A DNA stretch of 7,603 nucleotides from IMG/VR virus record IMGVR_UViG_2713896777_000003; one strand, 5' to 3'. This stretch comes from a virus. Its lineage: Duplodnaviria; Heunggongvirae; Uroviricota; Caudoviricetes. The position numbers were made by a program. Shown in pieces: positions 1 through 6,000 of the stretch; position 1 is the first letter of the stretch; each line of letters starts with the position of its first letter.

Positions 1-3000
1 CGCGTTGGCGAATAATCATTTCTGCCGGAAGAATGCCGGGATTGTATGCAAGTCCTCTCATGGTAAATTCCTCAGTCATTACTGATAGCGCCATAGCGTG
101 AGCGGTAATTACGCAGGCGCGGGTCAATTTCAGGGAAGTGGGTATATGTGGCTTTGCGGAATGGTCGGATTGATGTCTGGTAAATTCGCTCGCGTTCTTC
201 TTTCTCTGCAAGCCATATACAATGGCGAAATTCCTTTTCCTCTTTCGTTTCCTGCGGTAGCGACATTATCCGATCGTAGTTTTTTCTGAATTTATCCAGC
301 ACCTCCGATACGGAATTGCCGGAACAGCGGCGTGGGTCATCCGCACCATACAGAGGCGCTGGCATAATTAAATCCTTATTTTTCTAAATCAGAATGGGAT
401 GGAATCGTCGTATACAGGAGTGTTCTGCTGGTTACTACTTTGCTGCTGCGGGCCATTTCCTGAAGCTGCAAATCCAATCTTTGCATTCAGTAATTCAAGA
501 GTGATTGATTGACCATTTTGCCCCTGATAAACATCAACCCTGATGTTTTCTCCGGTAATTTCCACAATGCCACCTTCAACAAGAACACTACGGTAGTAAT
601 CCGCTTGCGCTCCCGGCTTGGCAAATACAACGGCGCTGTAGTTTGTCCATTCTTTCTTTTTTGTCTGGCGATCGTAATACTGAACGCCAGCACGGATGTT
701 GAATCCGATATTTTCCCCGGTCTGAAACTCTCTTGCGGGCTTGTTTAGTCTTACAGTAATCGAATGTGCCATTAAGCAGCAGCTCCTTCTAATTCGTCTC
801 GTCTGATGTTGTAAACGTCCTGCGCTTTGTGCTGCTCCGGTGTGCCTTCGAGCATCTTCCACGCTTTGGCGAACGCCTGTTTAAGCTCTTCTACGGTGTT
901 TTTCTGCATTGCTGCGTCAGTGAATGCTTTTAGAACCTGTTCAGGTGTAGGTGATGGTTTTGATTGCTTTGCTGCTGCGTTCTGCTGATGTTTATGCTCG
1001 TCGGTATCTGCATCTTTCGCATCATCAATGCCGAATAAACCATTGAGGCAATACTTGCGTGCATAAGAGCTTGTAGCTCCCGTAACTTGTGCAGAATCCA
1101 TTCCTTTCTTGCTTTCTTCCTCTCGTGCAAGAGCGGTTGCCGTATGACTGTTTTCGCCATCGGTAATAGTTGCCGTGGCTTTCACATAATACCGATCACC
1201 AATCAACACAACTTCATCGCTGATTGATAAAAACAGGCCATTCAGTAACGGCTTAACGCCTTCAAGAATGTCTTCGCAGCTTCTGTATTTATATTTACCG
1301 AATGAGTTGTACTGATTCTTTGGCGCGTTCAAGTTCTCCTGAATAGCTGCCAGTCTTGCGTAAAAGTCTTTGCTCATATGTTTGTTCTCAGAATGGGCAT
1401 GGCCCAAGGAAATAACGCTGATTTAATACTTCAGTCTTTGCCGCATTTAAAAATACGCGAACACCTTCACGATCTCCCTTCTGGCGATACATTAACGCCT
1501 GCTGCGTGTACATGCGTCTCTGTAACTTGCTCTCCTTCACTGTGGTTGCAAGTGACATGAATATCTCCTTCGTTACCGATTAATTCTTTCATCTGACGAA
1601 TGAATTCTTCGTCTGACCAGTTATCTGTAAAACTCATTTCCTGCGATAACACGGAAGGTTGATAGCTGATTTCATCGCTTTATTTGCTTCAAGCCACATT
1701 TTTGAATCACCAATAAATCGGGCTATTACTGCCTTGTTCTGTGCAGCACGAAGCATCTGGTGATTGATGGCTATTTCATTGCGCATAATAAGACCTCAAC
1801 TCTTTTCCATCCGTCACGTAATTTACGGGTGATTCGTTCAAGTAAAGATTCATTTAATTGGAAGGCACCCATGCGAGCGCCTCCCGCGATTGCGTAAATC
1901 ATGGGTGGTTCCTTATGTTGGTTTTATTAGTAGGTTATTTTTGTTGCGAATAATTCGCCTTTTACGATGGCTGTTATGATATTTTTAGCAACATCTTCTG
2001 ATGCGCCAACCTTGATAAGGTCAGCAAGTATTTTGTTATTTACTTCTTTCCGGTGAGCTTTATCCTTTGCTCTACGCTCTTCTTCGTCCTTGATTCTTTT
2101 TTCTTCTGCTATTCTGGCTTGCTCTTTTGCTTCAGCCTCGCGCAGGATTCGTTCTGCCTCCTCCTGTGCTTTACGGCGTTCTGCTTCAATTGCCGCATGC
2201 TTTTCTCTTTCAGCTCGTTCTGCTGCCTCTTTTGCTTCGCGCTGTGCTCGTTGCTCGGCTTCAATGCGTTCACGCTCTGCACGTTCCTCTGCGGCCTTAG
2301 CTTCTGCTTCTCGCCTTGCTGCTGCTTCAATTTCGGCTTTTGCCTTTGCTTCGGCTTCAGCTCTGGCTTTCTCTTCAGCTTCTCTTTTTAAGCGTTCTTC
2401 ATGCTCTCGCTTTTCCTGCTCCGCTTTGAGTCTTGCCTCTTCTCTTTGGCGGTCAAATTCGCGATCCATCAAAATCGCTATTTCATGGTCAGACTCAATT
2501 TGCTTTGCGAGAGCTTCAGCTGCTGCCTTAGCTTCTTCTTCGGCTTTAATCCGCGCCTGTTCTTCCTCATAATCAGTAAGAGGCTGGCGCGCCTTGGCTT
2601 TCAGTTCATCAAGGCGATCGCGCACTGTCTTGCGGTTAGCATCAATTAGCTTTGGAATTTCCTTCAGTTCAGCAACAAGGTCTTTGCCAAGACCATCGAG
2701 ATATGTTTTCGTCTGCGCAACTTTATACGCCAGATAAGCGATCTCCTTTCTGCCCTTTGCCGTTGTGATATCAGGCACAAAGGACATAACTTCACGTTCA
2801 ACCTTTTGAAGAATTTCTTCAATCTGGTCGGCAGACTAAATTACAGTCATTGCATTTGCTTTTTCAATAACAACTAAATCTGTTACTTCACTCATATATC
2901 CTCCGTCAAAAAAATTGCCCTCACACTGGAGGGCAAAGAAGATTTCCAATAATCAGAACAAGTCGGCTCCTGTTTAGTTACGAGCGACATTGCTCCGTGT

Positions 3001-6000
3001 ATTCACTCGTTGGAATGAATACACAGTGCAGTGTTTATTCGTATGCCTGTCTTTTAACCACATCAGGCTCGGTGGTTCTCGTGTACCCCTACAGCGAGAA
3101 ATCGGATAAACTCTATTCACCCCTACAGAGAGAATGATGGAGATTCACCGATGAGTAACTGGTGGCAGGAACTATTACGTTTCTTCCTGCGTGGTCTTAC
3201 GCTACAACAGTTAATTCATATGCTTATTATTTTAATTGCCTTGATAATAATCACCCCAGCATCAATTAAAGAGTGGGTAGATATAAGGAACCCCGAAATA
3301 CTTCCAGATCACTGGATGTATTACGCAATGCTTTTGTGTATCAGTTATGTTCTGAACAGGGGGATGGAGTTTATATTTCTGGCATCTTCAGACAGATATA
3401 AAAAATATCTCAGTAAGAGAGATGAGGCTAAAGTAATTGTGGAGACTGAGCGCCTATTCAATTCTCTGAGTATTCAGGAAAAAGAGGTTTTAGCATTTGC
3501 TGTTATGGCAAATAACAAAATCGTACTTAAGCACGGCGATCCGGTCGCTTTATCTCTTATGAGAAAAGGCCTTCTCCATCGCTCAGGTGTGACTTACAGC
3601 GCGTCAGGTAAAGAGAAATTTGTTATACCTGACGTCTGGTTCCATGAGTGTTATATGCGCTTTGCTGGTAAAGCTGATGAGCTAATTTAGTTCCTCTACG
3701 GCGGGGGGGATCGTCACCTCGCTGTCAGTTGTTTTGATTTCCGGTAGCCTGCCGCGTAAATGGCTACGTTTGGAAGACAAGTTGAACCTTCATATTTTCT
3801 GGTCAACGTTGTCAGAGTTATAACTTCTGCTCTCATTGCTGGTTTGCGCTTGCATTGCAAGACCACTCGTGAAGGGGTTGGCCTGTGTAGCTTGTCGGAG
3901 CTAATCGCCTCCTGACTTTGCAGGTTTGCGCGACGAGCTCTACGGCGAGAAGCTGCGGTGCCTTTAAATTCTGTTTTTCTGGACATAGATTCCTCCCGAA
4001 TAAACTTTGGCGATGCAATCTCGAAGCTCCTCCTGAGACGGTTACTTCGGCATTGCATCCCACAGCTTATGTGGTTGGGTGATCTGGCTTTTCAGCCACG
4101 TAGTCGAGTGTTCGACGTTGTTTAAAGAGCCTGCCAGTCTGCTCCGTTTGGCTTACAGCGTCCTGCTGATGAGTTGACTTTATCGAAATGATAAACTGAT
4201 GGCAATAGCAAAATGATAAATTGTTTGGGTTTTCAAATATCCTGTTGATTATTATGGTTTTTTATTTGATTGCGGGAATTTATCAGAAGGAATGAAGAGA
4301 CTTGAGGGGGATCAGAATTTCGTGGTTTAGAAAGTTGTATCTATCAATTTTTCAATAAATACAATTGGTTAAGGTGTTATTAGGTGTGGGGATCGTGAGG
4401 CAAAGAAAACCCGGCGCTGAGGCCGGGTTCTGTCATCTAACTTAAGTATCAAGCCGCTTTTTGTGAATGATTGATGTGAGCTTCAAAGTCGCGGCGTAGA
4501 TTTTGAACGCGCTCTACACATCCGCGCATTTCAGCCAAAAGCTTACTAACGGCAGTATAGTCAAACGCTTTAGTCATTTTTTTTCCCCTCGTTTAAATGT
4601 AAGGCTCAACATCAAGGGCTGCTATTGCTGCGCACAATGCGTCAGGATCGTCAGCATCGATGGCTTGAGCCAGGTCATTAGCCAGTATAAGTAACTTATC
4701 GATGACAGCGATTTCGCTGGTCTTATCTACACGAAAGTATGGGAGCAGAGCATTACATACGTCTCTGAATGTCCGTAATTCTGCGACAACGTTCGAAAAG
4801 GTAGGATCTTTCTTACGAAGATCCACCAATGGCGCTACTTTAGCTGTTTTCAGCATTGCACTAATCTCGCCAATCATTGTTCCATGCAGACGATTAAATT
4901 CATCAACAGCTCGGTCATGCAAGCTCTTGTTGATTGGCAATACGTTTTGGGTCACTAACTATACTCCTTATATAGGTGTTCGCCAACAGATTTTCAATAT
5001 GACTTGGGCGATTTCTGAACAATAAGCACGATTTAGCAATGATTAATTGATGTTAAGCACAAATATCTCTACATCGTGCATTTTTAACTATTTATACACA
5101 TAAAATCTAATAAATGGATATAAACCTTATGATGATTTTTCTCAATCGAATTGAATAATGATCTCTATCACATCACCCAAACGTCTCTTCAGGCCACTGG
5201 TTACCAGCTATGTGACGATGAAGTCACGAACTTTTCAGCCACTCCCTTGCCTCGATGTCATCCAGATGGCGAGATTGCTTCAGAATACCAGCCACATACT
5301 CCACCTTTGCTACTTGATGATAAGGCAACGTTATTGGCCTGTGGTCCTGGTTGATGCTTGTAAATTGGTATTCTCCATCTCTGTCATAGCCAAGAACTTT
5401 GATCATGTTGTGTCCTTCAACAGTTCTGACAAACACCTCATCCCCCGGGAATACTTTGGTGTTAGGCTCAATGAGTACATATTCTCCTGATTTTATTCTG
5501 GGCCACATGCTGTCTCCTTTCACACGAAGACCAAAGGCATCTGGATCATCGCTATAAATATTGAGCCACCCATCGCGCTCTTCGGTCATCTCGATGGCAC
5601 CATCAACACCAAGAATTGCCTCACCAACCACGCGCACTAACCCTTTTCTTACCTGACCGACAAAAGTTAAAGAATCTGAGCATGATGCAATTGGTGTTAC
5701 ATCATGTACCAAATCAAGCCACCCATTAGGTAACCCAAGTGCGGCTTCGAATTTTCTTGCTAGTTTATCCCCTATGTTTCGAGTGCTTTTTTCACCGGAG
5801 ACTTGCGTGAGTTGAGAAGGGCTAACTCCAAGCTTATCGGCAAAGCTTGCATTAGTGTTACCCGCGATTTTTTTATGCTCATCTAGCAAAAACGCCAGAT
5901 TCGATTTGCGAATATCTTTGTTTTCCATCCCACGATTCTCCCTCTATTTAGCAAATGGATAAATATGCATTTTGATAAATCTTCATTGCGTTTTATTTAT

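What the first reader, a model, noticed from the sequence alone, without database searches (positions are those of the whole stretch)
2997..3134. Perfect inverted repeat and a 16-bp direct repeat in the non-coding region upstream of sieB
The 215-bp gap between the tL-like terminator and sieB contains no convincing ORF but holds a perfect 9-bp inverted repeat GTGTATTCA-N10-TGAATACAC (2997-3024) and two copies of ACCCCTACAG(C/A)GAGAA (3085-3100 and 3119-3134), the second ending 17 bp before the sieB ATG. These look like protein-binding sites or RNA structures controlling sieB, or possibly a small RNA.
Basis: seen in the sequence. Interest (0 to 1): 0.45.

Follow-up and report, generated by a model that had tools for sequence, protein, structure and literature searches.

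The report
sieB promoter repeat and tL2a hairpin
The two repeats are real, but they belong to two separate, already annotated lambdoid-phage modules: the direct repeat is the P22-type sieB promoter and mRNA start, and the inverted repeat is a covariation-supported RNA hairpin on the opposite (leftward) strand beside the lambda tL2a terminator.

Summary
A perfect inverted repeat of 9 bp or more occurs in 1.2% of shuffles. A 15/16 direct repeat occurred in 0 of 2000.

They are not one sieB control region. Two independently mobile conserved modules abut at 3041-3043 because this prophage lacks ral.

- **Module 1 (3044-3150)** is the P22/lambda sieB promoter cassette. By homology to the annotated P22 promoter, the -10 is TAAACT at 3107-3112. 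Repeat copy 2 begins at the mRNA +1 (A3119). Copy 1 covers -34 to -19.
  - In diverged relatives the motif changes in both copies together, with at least 5 alleles at a fixed 33-34 bp spacing.
  - On the leftward strand, copy 1 forms a hairpin stacked on a probable pseudoknot.
  - My inference is that this is the structured part of a sas-type antisense RNA, whose hairpin stays complementary to the sieB mRNA 5' end.
- **Module 2 (2905-3040)** is the lambda tL2a terminator plus "boundary sequence 4".
  - The inverted repeat is hairpin H1. Eight of its 11 pairs show compensatory changes. G·U pairs occur on the leftward strand and all but one would be mismatches on the other strand.
  - H1 belongs to the pL transcript, not to sieB.

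No Rfam family matches either module. Their functions remain inferred.

The parts
2908..2936 (-). Intrinsic terminator, homologue of lambda tL2a. The stem is 2915-2922 paired with 2929-2936, and the U-run on the minus strand is 2908-2914.
   Evidence: The terminator scan found it. It is identical or nearly identical to lambda 33.9 kb. The same sequence is annotated 'tL2A' in Sf6 and HK620. Its stem sequence differs between relatives (GCCCUC, GCCGCCC and GCCCGAC types).
2957..2974 (-). Hairpin H3 of the leftward RNA (AACAGG / UUGUU plus loop).
   Evidence: RNAalifold and pair counts on 100 copies give 99.5% of cells paired. One pair changes A-U to G-C in 13 sequences. G·U pairs occur only on the minus strand: 588/591 cells pair there against 498/591 on the plus strand.
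2982..2995 (-). Hairpin H2 (GAGC-N6-GCUC). It is invariant in the sample.
   Evidence: The invariance is partly forced because this stretch was the retrieval pattern. It is also conserved in BLAST-retrieved relatives.
2997..3024 (-). On the minus strand it has 11 bp (2997-3007 paired with 3014-3024, including one U·G) and a 6-nt loop.
   Evidence: Eight of 11 pairs show changes on both sides. Four different stem sequences occupy the same place between conserved flanks. 99.7% of cells pair on the minus strand against 89.4% on the plus strand. The covariation score is 0.190 against 0.076 shuffled (0/500) and at most 0.067 when partners are slid. The MFE z-score is -4.9.
3041..3043 (.). Junction between the two conserved modules. 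In lambda and P22 the ral genes lie here.
   Evidence: Lambda homology of the tL2a/bsq4 module ends at about 3040. Lambda and P22 homology of the sieB promoter module starts at 3044. Matches in HK140-type phages split into two pieces around ral.
3045..3076 (-). Conserved 32-nt block, a probable H-type pseudoknot of the leftward RNA. S2 pairs 3045-3049 with 3064-3068. S1 pairs 3057-3061 with 3072-3076. The loop crossing S1 is A-rich.
   Evidence: The block is 100% identical to lambda and P22 and occurs upstream of many different genes. S2 has compensatory alleles GCCUG/CAGGC, GCCCGG/CCGGGC and GCCGGG/CCCGGC. S1 is mostly invariant, with one UCAC/GUGA allele. By my tally, 9 single-sided variant types give G·U on the minus strand and 1 on the plus strand. 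A generic pseudoknot parse is also found in 26% of shuffles, so the support rests on fixed position plus covariation.
3076..3100 (-). Hairpin carrying repeat copy 1 (3085-3100). On the minus strand it reads UUCUCG-C-UGUA-GGGG-UACA-CGAGAA and abuts the pseudoknot.
   Evidence: The hairpin folds more stably on the minus strand than on the plus strand in all 9 representative alleles, for example -10.3 against -1.9 and -12.8 against -3.5 kcal/mol. In 4 of the 5 motif alleles the repeated stretch equals the 5' arm plus loop of this minus-strand hairpin (my reading of the folds).
3107..3112 (+). -10 hexamer TAAACT of the sieB promoter.
   Evidence: It aligns base for base with the -10 end of the promoter feature of P22 record BK000583. 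Relatives carry TAATCT, TAACAT or TATAAT at the same place.
3119..3134 (+). Repeat copy 2, the first 16 nt of sieB mRNA. The inferred +1 is A3119.
   Evidence: The sieB RNA start site annotated in the P22 record (BK000583 29727) is the first A of the second ACCCCTACAG. The window is identical there.
3151..3690 (+). sieB gene. The Shine-Dalgarno GGAG is at 3139-3142. An in-frame internal ATG at 3220 corresponds to the P22 esc start.
   Evidence: Pfam SieB match. The P22 record annotates esc 72 nt into sieB. The window ATG at 3220 is 69 nt in and in frame.

Best explanation
The finding covers two unrelated conserved modules of lambdoid early-left regions. They touch here only because this E. coli prophage has no ral gene between them.

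(1) 3044-3150 is the P22/lambda-type sieB promoter cassette. RNA polymerase uses the -10 TAAACT (3107-3112) and starts at A3119, so repeat copy 2 is the 5' end of sieB mRNA. Copy 1 lies at -34 to -19, where a -35 element would be. The two copies are kept identical across diverged relatives. The most likely reason (inferred) is that the region is also read leftward by N-antiterminated pL transcripts of an infecting or induced phage. In that RNA, copy 1 forms a hairpin with a GGGG loop stacked on a pseudoknot. The hairpin's 5' arm and loop are complementary to the first 16 nt of sieB mRNA. This would be the structured recognition and stability domain of the sas-type antisense RNA, which in P22 shuts off SieB translation while sparing the internal Esc start.

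(2) 2905-3040 is the lambda tL2a terminator module ('boundary sequence 4'). The inverted repeat is hairpin H1 of the same leftward transcript. H2, H3 and the terminator follow it. H1 acts on the 3' end of leftward RNA, as a stability or processing element (inferred). It is not a sieB operator.

What is shown: the identities, positions, conservation, covariation and strand asymmetry. What is inferred: every functional step.
For: Module identities:
- The window is 98.9-100% identical to P22 and lambda over 3044-3132.
- The P22 record annotates the promoter and RNA start there.
- 2909-3040 is identical to lambda between ea10 and ral, and is annotated tL2A and bsq4 in Sf6 and HK620.
- The modules occur apart, with or without sieB.

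Inverted repeat:
- Four stem alleles sit between conserved flanks.
- Eight of 11 pairs are compensatory, with 99.7% of cells paired.
- Covariation is above all 500 shuffles and all slid controls.
- 113 G·U cells lie on the minus strand against 1 on the plus strand.

Direct repeat:
- 48 of 94 distinct cassette sequences carry an exact repeat of at least 8 nt, at a fixed offset and 33-34 bp spacing (range 32-36), against 3% of shuffles.
- At least 5 motif alleles change in both copies together: CCCCTACAG, CCCCAACAAC, TTCCACAGTCAA, CCCCAATGCAA and CCCCCACAA.
- The Rac prophage has the same layout.

Leftward-strand structure:
- The copy-1 hairpin is more stable on the minus strand in 9/9 alleles.
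- The S2 stem of the block has three compensatory alleles.

Literature: P22 makes a 105-nt cis-antisense RNA, sas, that switches sieB translation (PMC12197685; PMC7067206).
Against: - No expression data were available. No leftward RNA end has been mapped in this region here.
- I could not read the primary sas papers, so the position of sas relative to these structures is unknown.
- A true cis-antisense RNA is already complementary to its target, so the need for a second complementary site is not obvious.
- MFE folding of the minus strand 3041-3150 is no better than shuffles (z = -0.58).
- Pseudoknot stem S1 hardly varies, and a generic pseudoknot parse occurs in 26% of shuffled sequences.
- The H1 stem alleles look like whole-cassette replacements, so the number of independent evolutionary events is about four, not dozens.
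- The loci were retrieved with exact patterns, which inflates apparent invariance of the flanks.
Confidence: 0.6

Rival explanations
1. The two copies of the direct repeat are DNA binding sites for one regulatory protein, a repressor or activator that brackets the core sieB promoter at -34 and +1.
For: The spacing is fixed at 33-34 bp. The position flanks the -10. The -35 is weak (TGTACC with a 19-bp spacer in the P22 annotation; no consensus promoter found by scan). Concerted change of both copies would also be expected for paired operator sites.
Against: The cassette sits upstream of unrelated genes in many different phages, and no regulator is conserved next to it. The repeated stretch coincides with one arm plus the loop of a hairpin that is consistently more stable on the minus strand. 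A DNA site would not explain that. No candidate protein was identified.
Confidence: 0.2
2. The direct repeat is only a relic of a 34-bp tandem duplication of the leader (motif plus Shine-Dalgarno region) that created a new -10. The identity of the copies has no function.
For: The sequence after copy 1 (CGAGAA-ATCGGA...) faintly resembles that after copy 2 (AGAGAA-TGATGGA...). A single-copy form of the cassette exists (class B). Short direct repeats readily arise by slippage.
Against: At least five motif alleles keep both copies identical over 9-13 nt while the surrounding 20-odd nt have diverged, at a constant offset and spacing. That requires either selection or five independent identical duplications.
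Confidence: 0.1
3. The inverted repeat is a DNA-level element: a palindromic protein-binding site, or simply a conserved 'boundary sequence' that serves homologous recombination between phage modules.
For: The Sf6 and HK542 records annotate it as boundary sequence 4. It is nearly identical among hundreds of phages and occurs in 2243 of 5426 complete E. coli genomes. It does sit at a mosaic junction in this window.
Against: Four unrelated stem sequences keep self-complementarity at the same place. All but one of the wobble pairs fall on one strand. Recombination homology does not predict that, and a DNA palindrome would be strand-symmetric.
Confidence: 0.12
4. The tL2a module is an independent Hfq-type small RNA gene with its own promoter, like KilS at the equivalent place in the Rac prophage.
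For: A U-rich stretch precedes a terminator hairpin with a U-tail, and the region gives weak RyhB-like terminator matches. KilS, an Hfq-associated sRNA verified by northern blot, lies between sieB and kilR on the same strand in K-12 (PMC8175672).
Against: There is no sequence homology to KilS. Conservation starts only about 12 nt upstream of H1, with three or more unrelated 5' contexts, so there is no conserved promoter. The promoter scan found none. The BTP1 lysogen transcriptome lists no ncRNA between gene 17 and N. A small RNA processed from pL transcripts remains possible.
Confidence: 0.15

Closest known systems
P22 sieB promoter and the sas antisense RNA / SieB-Esc translational switch (Ranade and Poteete 1993; annotation in GenBank BK000583)
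   Same: The window has the same sequence (98.9-100% over 3044-3132), the same -10, the same inferred +1, a downstream SieB-family gene, and an in-frame internal start at the esc position.
   Different: The 5' UTR after +16 and the coding sequence differ from P22 (about 90% identity or less). ral is absent, so the cassette abuts the tL2a module. The hairpin, the pseudoknot and the co-varying repeat are not part of any annotation I could find. Whether they belong to sas is my inference.
Lambda tL2a terminator and 'boundary sequence 4' (bsq4) of lambdoid phages (annotations in Sf6 NC_005344, HK620 AF335538 and HK542 EF120458)
   Same: The window shares near-identical sequence, the same strand, and the same place ahead of the next leftward gene.
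   Different: Those records treat the element as a terminator plus a recombination boundary. Here the part upstream of the terminator behaves as three RNA hairpins, with compensatory changes on the leftward strand.
KilS small RNA of the Rac prophage (E. coli K-12 b4833)
   Same: KilS lies on the leftward strand between sieB and the next leftward gene, ends at an intrinsic terminator, and is Hfq-associated.
   Different: There is no sequence similarity. KilS appears to have its own promoter, and none is conserved here.
Structured cis-antisense RNAs that start pairing through a hairpin loop (CopA/CopT, RNA I/RNA II, Sok/hok, RNA-OUT/RNA-IN). This comparison rests on my own knowledge.
   Same: A stable hairpin whose loop and one arm are complementary to the 5' end or ribosome-binding region of the target mRNA would control translation.
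   Different: Here the complementary hairpin lies outside the overlap with the target mRNA. Complementarity is provided by a direct repeat in the DNA. This arrangement is inferred, not demonstrated.

Membership tests
P22-type sieB promoter (PsieB) | Sequence homologous to the promoter annotated in P22 | tested here: met
   Identity to P22 and lambda is 98.9-100% over window 3044-3132. The P22 promoter feature 29690-29720 aligns to window 3082-3112.
P22-type sieB promoter (PsieB) | -10 hexamer and transcription start at the same positions | tested here: met
   TAAACT at 3107-3112 and A3119 align with P22 TAAACT and the annotated RNA start 29727. This is by homology only. The start itself cannot be measured with these tools.
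P22-type sieB promoter (PsieB) | Drives a SieB gene that has an internal in-frame Esc start | tested here: met
   Pfam SieB E=1.5e-19. The in-frame ATG at 3220 matches the P22 esc position.
sas antisense RNA (P22) | Leftward transcript of about 105 nt complementary to the sieB translation start region, made by the superinfecting phage | not testable with these tools
   No expression data were available and the primary papers are not held. Only reviews were read. The span 3044-3148 happens to be 105 nt, which may be coincidence.
Lambda tL2a terminator / bsq4 | Sequence identity with lambda 33.9-34.05 kb and with the annotated Sf6 and HK620 features | tested here: met
   Sf6 bsq4 (24156-24268) corresponds to window 2917-3029.
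Lambda tL2a terminator / bsq4 | GC-rich hairpin followed by a U-run on the leftward strand | tested here: met
   An 8-bp stem with 5 G-C pairs is followed by TTTTTTT.
Hfq-dependent small RNA with its own promoter (KilS-like) | Homology to KilS | tested here: not met
   Only a 10-nt chance match, in the opposite orientation.
Hfq-dependent small RNA with its own promoter (KilS-like) | Conserved promoter upstream of the RNA | tested here: not met
   No promoter-like site was found. Conservation begins about 12 nt before H1, in unrelated contexts.
Any Rfam 15 family | Covariance-model match | tested here: not met
   Nothing near the gathering score was found. Only weak terminator-like hits appeared (RyhB 19 bits against 55 needed).
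H-type RNA pseudoknot (block 3045-3076) | Two interleaved stems, each supported by compensatory changes | tested here: inconclusive
   S2 has three compensatory alleles. S1 is almost invariant, with one UCAC/GUGA allele. MAFFT could not align the variants well enough for a formal pair count.

The most novel reading that the evidence does not exclude
The 3044-3134 segment may be one instance of a portable control cassette not described as an RNA family. It would be a leftward-strand hairpin plus H-type pseudoknot placed upstream of many different rightward accessory or exclusion genes inside lambdoid early-left operons. In its two-copy form, a DNA direct repeat keeps the antisense hairpin complementary to the 5' end of the accessory-gene mRNA. 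An incoming or induced phage that transcribes through it could then switch off the resident exclusion gene, as a general form of the P22 sas switch. The neighbouring H1-H2-H3-tL2a element would be a second undescribed structured RNA of the pL transcript, present in about 40% of complete E. coli genomes.
Probability: 0.3. Interest if true: 0.7.

Novelty: new member of a known kind. Interest (0 to 1): 0.5.

Why it matters
SieB/Esc/sas is one of the oldest examples of an antisense-controlled translational switch and of prophage self versus non-self discrimination. It has hardly been revisited since 1993. If the co-varying repeat, hairpin and pseudoknot are the working parts of that switch, they give precise, testable mutations. 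They would also explain why this 90-bp stretch is frozen at 99-100% identity between lambda, P22 and E. coli prophages whose flanking genes differ. The same block upstream of many other small genes would mark a family of similarly controlled accessory or defence genes. The tL2a-proximal hairpins occur in 2243 of 5426 complete E. coli genomes, including Stx phages, and carry no RNA annotation. If instead everything reduces to a promoter and a terminator, the finding is ordinary.

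Tried and rejected
- **Rfam.** A scan of the whole window and of 2850-3200 at E up to 10 gave nothing relevant.
- **Known prophage small RNAs.** AgvB and AsxR lie downstream of PR' and PasB lies among structural genes, so none is at this position.
- **KilS homology.** Rejected.
- **Coding potential.** The 46-aa ORF 2997-3137 spans two modules that ral separates in lambda and P22.
- **By-eye motif checks.** I looked for CRP, sigma-28, sigma-32, sigma-E and sigma-54 motifs, RfaH ops, and boxA/boxB nut-like sites. H3 has the same sequence in phages with different N proteins. None was convincing and none was pursued.
- **sas promoter.** I found no acceptable -10/-35 for a sas promoter inside the start of sieB on the minus strand, in the window or in P22 (and by eye).
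- **Primary sas and sieB papers.** Not held.
- **Literature searches.** Searches by sequence string, 'tL2a' and 'boundary sequences' found nothing useful.
- **Genome-contig scan.** The 14-specified-base (15-nt) pattern returned only chance hits in unrelated phyla (loci L252-L371, ignored).
- **Block searches.** A fuzzy-regex search for diverged blocks timed out. nhmmer found almost no extra copies in the held loci. BLAST with the Rac variant found 7 records.
- **Block alignment.** The MAFFT alignment of block variants was misaligned and was not used for pair counting.
- **Minus-strand fold of 3041-3150.** It is not more stable than shuffles.

Full report
**1. What is in the sequence**

The window is the immunity-left region of a lambdoid E. 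coli prophage.
- The 261 bases searched (2900-3160) are 100% identical to the chromosome of strain E2865.
- sieB lies at 3151-3690 (+), matching Pfam SieB at E=1.5e-19.
- An N antiterminator lies at 3714-4058 (-).
- A CI-like repressor, cro and cII lie further right.

Both repeats are at the stated coordinates. I shuffled the 214-nt gap 2000 times, preserving dinucleotides, and asked for any repeat of the same quality.
- A perfect inverted repeat of at least 9 bp with a 3-20 nt loop occurred in 1.2% of shuffles.
- A 15/16 direct repeat within 60 nt never occurred.

**2. Two modules, not one**

The gap is made of two conserved blocks with separate histories.

*The terminator module, window 2909-3040.*
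- It is identical to lambda DNA between ea10 and ral.
- It matches sequence annotated in Sf6 as terminator "tL2A" plus "bsq4; boundary sequence", and in HK620 as tL2A. HK542 also labels it boundary sequence 4.
- It occurs in 413 phage records. These include Stx phages, phage 21 and Sf6, where no sieB is adjacent.

*The promoter module, window 3044-3132.*
- It is 98.9-100% identical to the stretch upstream of sieB in P22 and lambda, while the flanks diverge.
- In lambda and P22, ral (and orf28 in lambda) lies between the two blocks.
- In this window, HK620 and VT1-Sakai, ral is absent and the blocks abut at 3041-3043.
- Some part of 2900-3160 is found in 2243 of 5426 complete E. coli genomes. 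No RNA is annotated under any listed match.

**3. The direct repeat is the sieB promoter and the mRNA start**

The curated P22 record BK000583 annotates a sieB promoter at 29690-29720 and a "sieB RNA start site" at 29727. Reading the P22 sequence:
- The promoter feature runs from TGTACC to TAAACT.
- The start site is the first A of the second ACCCCTACAG.

The window is identical there. By homology:
- The -10 is 3107-3112.
- +1 is A3119.
- Copy 2 (3119-3134) is the first 16 nt of sieB mRNA.
- Copy 1 (3085-3100) spans -34 to -19.

From my own memory of Ranade and Poteete 1993, the start was mapped by RNase protection and the -10 was inactivated by mutation. I could not retrieve the paper.

**4. 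The two copies co-vary**

I fetched loci from IMG/VR and GenBank using the conserved upstream block, not the repeat.
- 48 of 94 distinct downstream sequences carry an exact direct repeat of at least 8 nt.
- With two exceptions, the repeat starts 8-13 nt after the block. Its spacing is 33-34 bp in most cases, with a range of 32-36.
- Shuffles reach 8 nt in only 3% of cases.

The repeated motif differs between lineages but is the same in both copies of each:
- CCCCTACAG in the window, P22, lambda, HK620, and a Klebsiella and a Hafnia phage.
- CCCCAACAAC, TTCCACAGTCAA, CCCCAATGCAA and CCCCCACAA in others.

The Rac prophage of K-12 has the same layout. The sequence between and after the copies has diverged. 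Something therefore keeps the copies alike.

A second form of the cassette has one copy only. In that form the block runs straight into an extended -10-like TGGTATNCT and a palindrome whose 3' arm is the Shine-Dalgarno sequence of assorted small genes.

**5. Structure on the leftward strand of the promoter module**

*The copy-1 hairpin.* Copy 1 lies in a hairpin at 3076-3100. Read on the minus strand it is UUCUCG-C-UGUA-GGGG-UACA-CGAGAA.
- In all nine representative alleles the hairpin is more stable on the minus strand than on the plus strand. Examples are -10.3 against -1.9 and -12.8 against -3.5 kcal/mol, because of G·U pairs.
- In four of the five motif alleles, the repeated stretch equals the 5' arm plus loop of that minus-strand hairpin.

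*The 32-nt block.* The hairpin directly abuts the conserved block at 3045-3076. The block can form two interleaved stems.
- S2 shows compensatory alleles: GCCUG/CAGGC, GCCCGG/CCGGGC and GCCGGG/CCCGGC.
- S1 (ACCAC/GUGGU) is nearly invariant, with one UCAC/GUGA allele.
- By my tally, nine single-sided variant types are G·U on the minus strand and one is G·U on the plus strand.
- The loop lengths (short L1, long A-rich L3) fit the usual H-type geometry only when read on the minus strand. This rests on my own knowledge of pseudoknot geometry.

*Caveats.*
- A generic pseudoknot parse is found in 26% of shuffles.
- MAFFT could not align the variants for a formal count.
- The whole minus-strand stretch 3041-3150 does not fold better than shuffles.

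I rate the pseudoknot as probable, not proven.

**6. How this most likely works (inferred)**

Reviews state that P22 makes a 105-nt cis-antisense RNA, sas. It base-pairs with sieB mRNA and induces a translational switch between the two sieB-encoded peptides, SieB and Esc.

From memory, the 1993 abstract adds that it is the superinfecting phage that makes sas, that sas blocks SieB synthesis while allowing Esc, and that a similar control was predicted for lambda. The only stretch conserved between P22 and lambda here is the block, the hairpin, the -10 and copy 2.

My proposal has three parts:
- Leftward transcripts from a derepressed pL, read through by N, cross this region.
- The hairpin plus pseudoknot form the stable 3' domain of the antisense RNA.
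- The GGGG loop and 5' arm of the hairpin pair with the ACCCCUACAG... 5' end of sieB mRNA.

This would explain why copy 1 and copy 2 must stay identical. The distance 3044-3148 is 105 nt, which may be coincidence.

The main weakness is that a cis-antisense RNA already matches its target, so a second site is not obviously needed. I found no acceptable sas promoter.

The main rival is a DNA-binding protein recognising both copies, which I cannot exclude (0.2).

**7. The inverted repeat is an RNA hairpin of the leftward transcript**

I retrieved loci by the left flank (TTACGAGCGAYATTGCTC).
- At the same place, four unrelated self-complementary sequences appear: CGTGTATTCA...TGAATACACAG, ACATAGCAGA...TCTGCTATAGG, ACAATGACCA...TGGTCATTAGG and GCAATGCGGA...TCCGCATTAAG.
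- They sit between conserved flanks. P22 itself carries one, between gene 17 and orf87.

On an alignment of 100 distinct copies:
- RNAalifold predicts H1, a short invariant H2 (GAGC/GCUC), and H3. A separate scan predicts the terminator.
- For H1, 8 of 11 pairs show changes on both sides and 99.7% of cells are paired.
- The covariation score for the whole structure is 0.190, against 0.076 in shuffles (0/500) and at most 0.067 when partners are slid.
- H1 pairs in 1086/1089 cells read on the minus strand, against 974/1089 on the plus strand. H3 pairs in 588/591 against 498/591.
- All but one of the wobble pairs are therefore G·U on the leftward strand.

This points to RNA made in the pL direction, not to a DNA palindrome or a sieB operator.

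The changes amount to about four whole-stem replacements, so independent events are few. The invariance of H2 is partly forced by the retrieval pattern.

**8. What the hairpin module does**

This is not shown.
- Conservation begins only about 12 nt 5' of H1, in at least three unrelated contexts. No promoter is conserved or detected.
- The BTP1 lysogen transcriptome lists no ncRNA between gene 17 and N.

The module is therefore most likely part of longer leftward transcripts. My preferred reading is a 3'-end structure that stabilises or directs processing of RNAs ending at tL2a. In this ral-less phage it would also sit downstream of the antisense domain on the same RNA.

A processed Hfq-type small RNA is possible. 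A U-rich stretch precedes the terminator hairpin. The Rac prophage encodes the Hfq-associated sRNA KilS at the equivalent position, although KilS is not homologous.

**9. Comparison with what is known, and novelty**

The promoter, the terminator and the "boundary sequence" are already annotated in close relatives. The sas switch is published.

I could not find the following in Rfam, in the annotations I read, or in the papers I searched:
- the co-variation of the direct repeat;
- the minus-strand hairpin plus pseudoknot;
- the covariation-supported hairpins upstream of tL2a.

I file the finding as a new member of known kinds: promoter plus cis-antisense RNA domain, and terminator-proximal structured RNA.

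**10. Verdict**

- Interest is moderate (0.5). The elements are known and widespread, but the covariation turns an old, little-studied antisense switch into something directly testable.

Noticed in passing
window 2836-2838 (minus strand), within the ORF that starts at 2895: The Sf6 gp33-like gene (322 codons in Sf6 and phiSTEC801) carries an amber TAG at codon 20, where the relatives have CAG. The ORF list therefore shows only a 286-aa ORF restarting at 2787. This is either a pseudogene or a re-initiated product.
   Followed up: partly
window 7127-7246: Several tandem copies of an ATCCCTCAAAACGAGGGA-type hairpin unit look like lambda-type ori iterons inside the O gene. They cause spurious snoRNA matches in Rfam (snR191, E=0.004).
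   Followed up: no
window about 6530-6590: A run of N (translated as X) lies inside the cII-like ORF 6414-6746. It is a masked or unresolved stretch of the source record.
   Followed up: no
window 3134-3154: A six-codon mini-ORF, ATG ATG GAG ATT CAC CGA TGA, lies in the sieB leader. Its stop overlaps the sieB ATG (ATGA). It is absent from P22 and VT1-Sakai, whose leaders differ here.
   Followed up: no
window 3522-3549: Terminator-like hairpins occur on both strands inside sieB. HK620 annotates tL1 inside its sieB-like gene, so the minus-strand one may be the tL1 equivalent that N must override before leftward RNA reaches the sieB start.
   Followed up: no
L010 (SfV U82619) 1500-1815, and many IMG/VR loci L140-L250: The 32-nt block (GCCTG(T)CTTTTMACCACNTCAGGCKMGGTGG) also occurs in a one-copy form. 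There it is followed by TGGTATNCT and a palindrome containing the Shine-Dalgarno sequence of assorted small genes. One is an unannotated 81-aa ORF in SfV, where the palindrome is annotated as a minus-strand terminator.
   Followed up: partly
L251 (E. coli K-12 NC_000913) 5406-5503, minus strand: The annotated small RNA KilS lies between sieB and kilR in the Rac prophage. This is the same relative position and strand as the tL2a module here, but the sequences are unrelated. Rac also carries a diverged sieB promoter cassette with a compensated S2 stem.
   Followed up: yes
L002 (P22 BK000583) 572-737: P22 has its own copy of the H1-H2-H3-terminator module between gene 17 and orf87, with a different H1 stem and terminator stem. 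The record does not annotate it. Its only terminator feature in that region lies downstream of gene 17.
   Followed up: partly
window 3936-3951: A third, weak match to the 16-nt repeat (3 mismatches) lies inside the N gene. It is consistent with chance.
   Followed up: no
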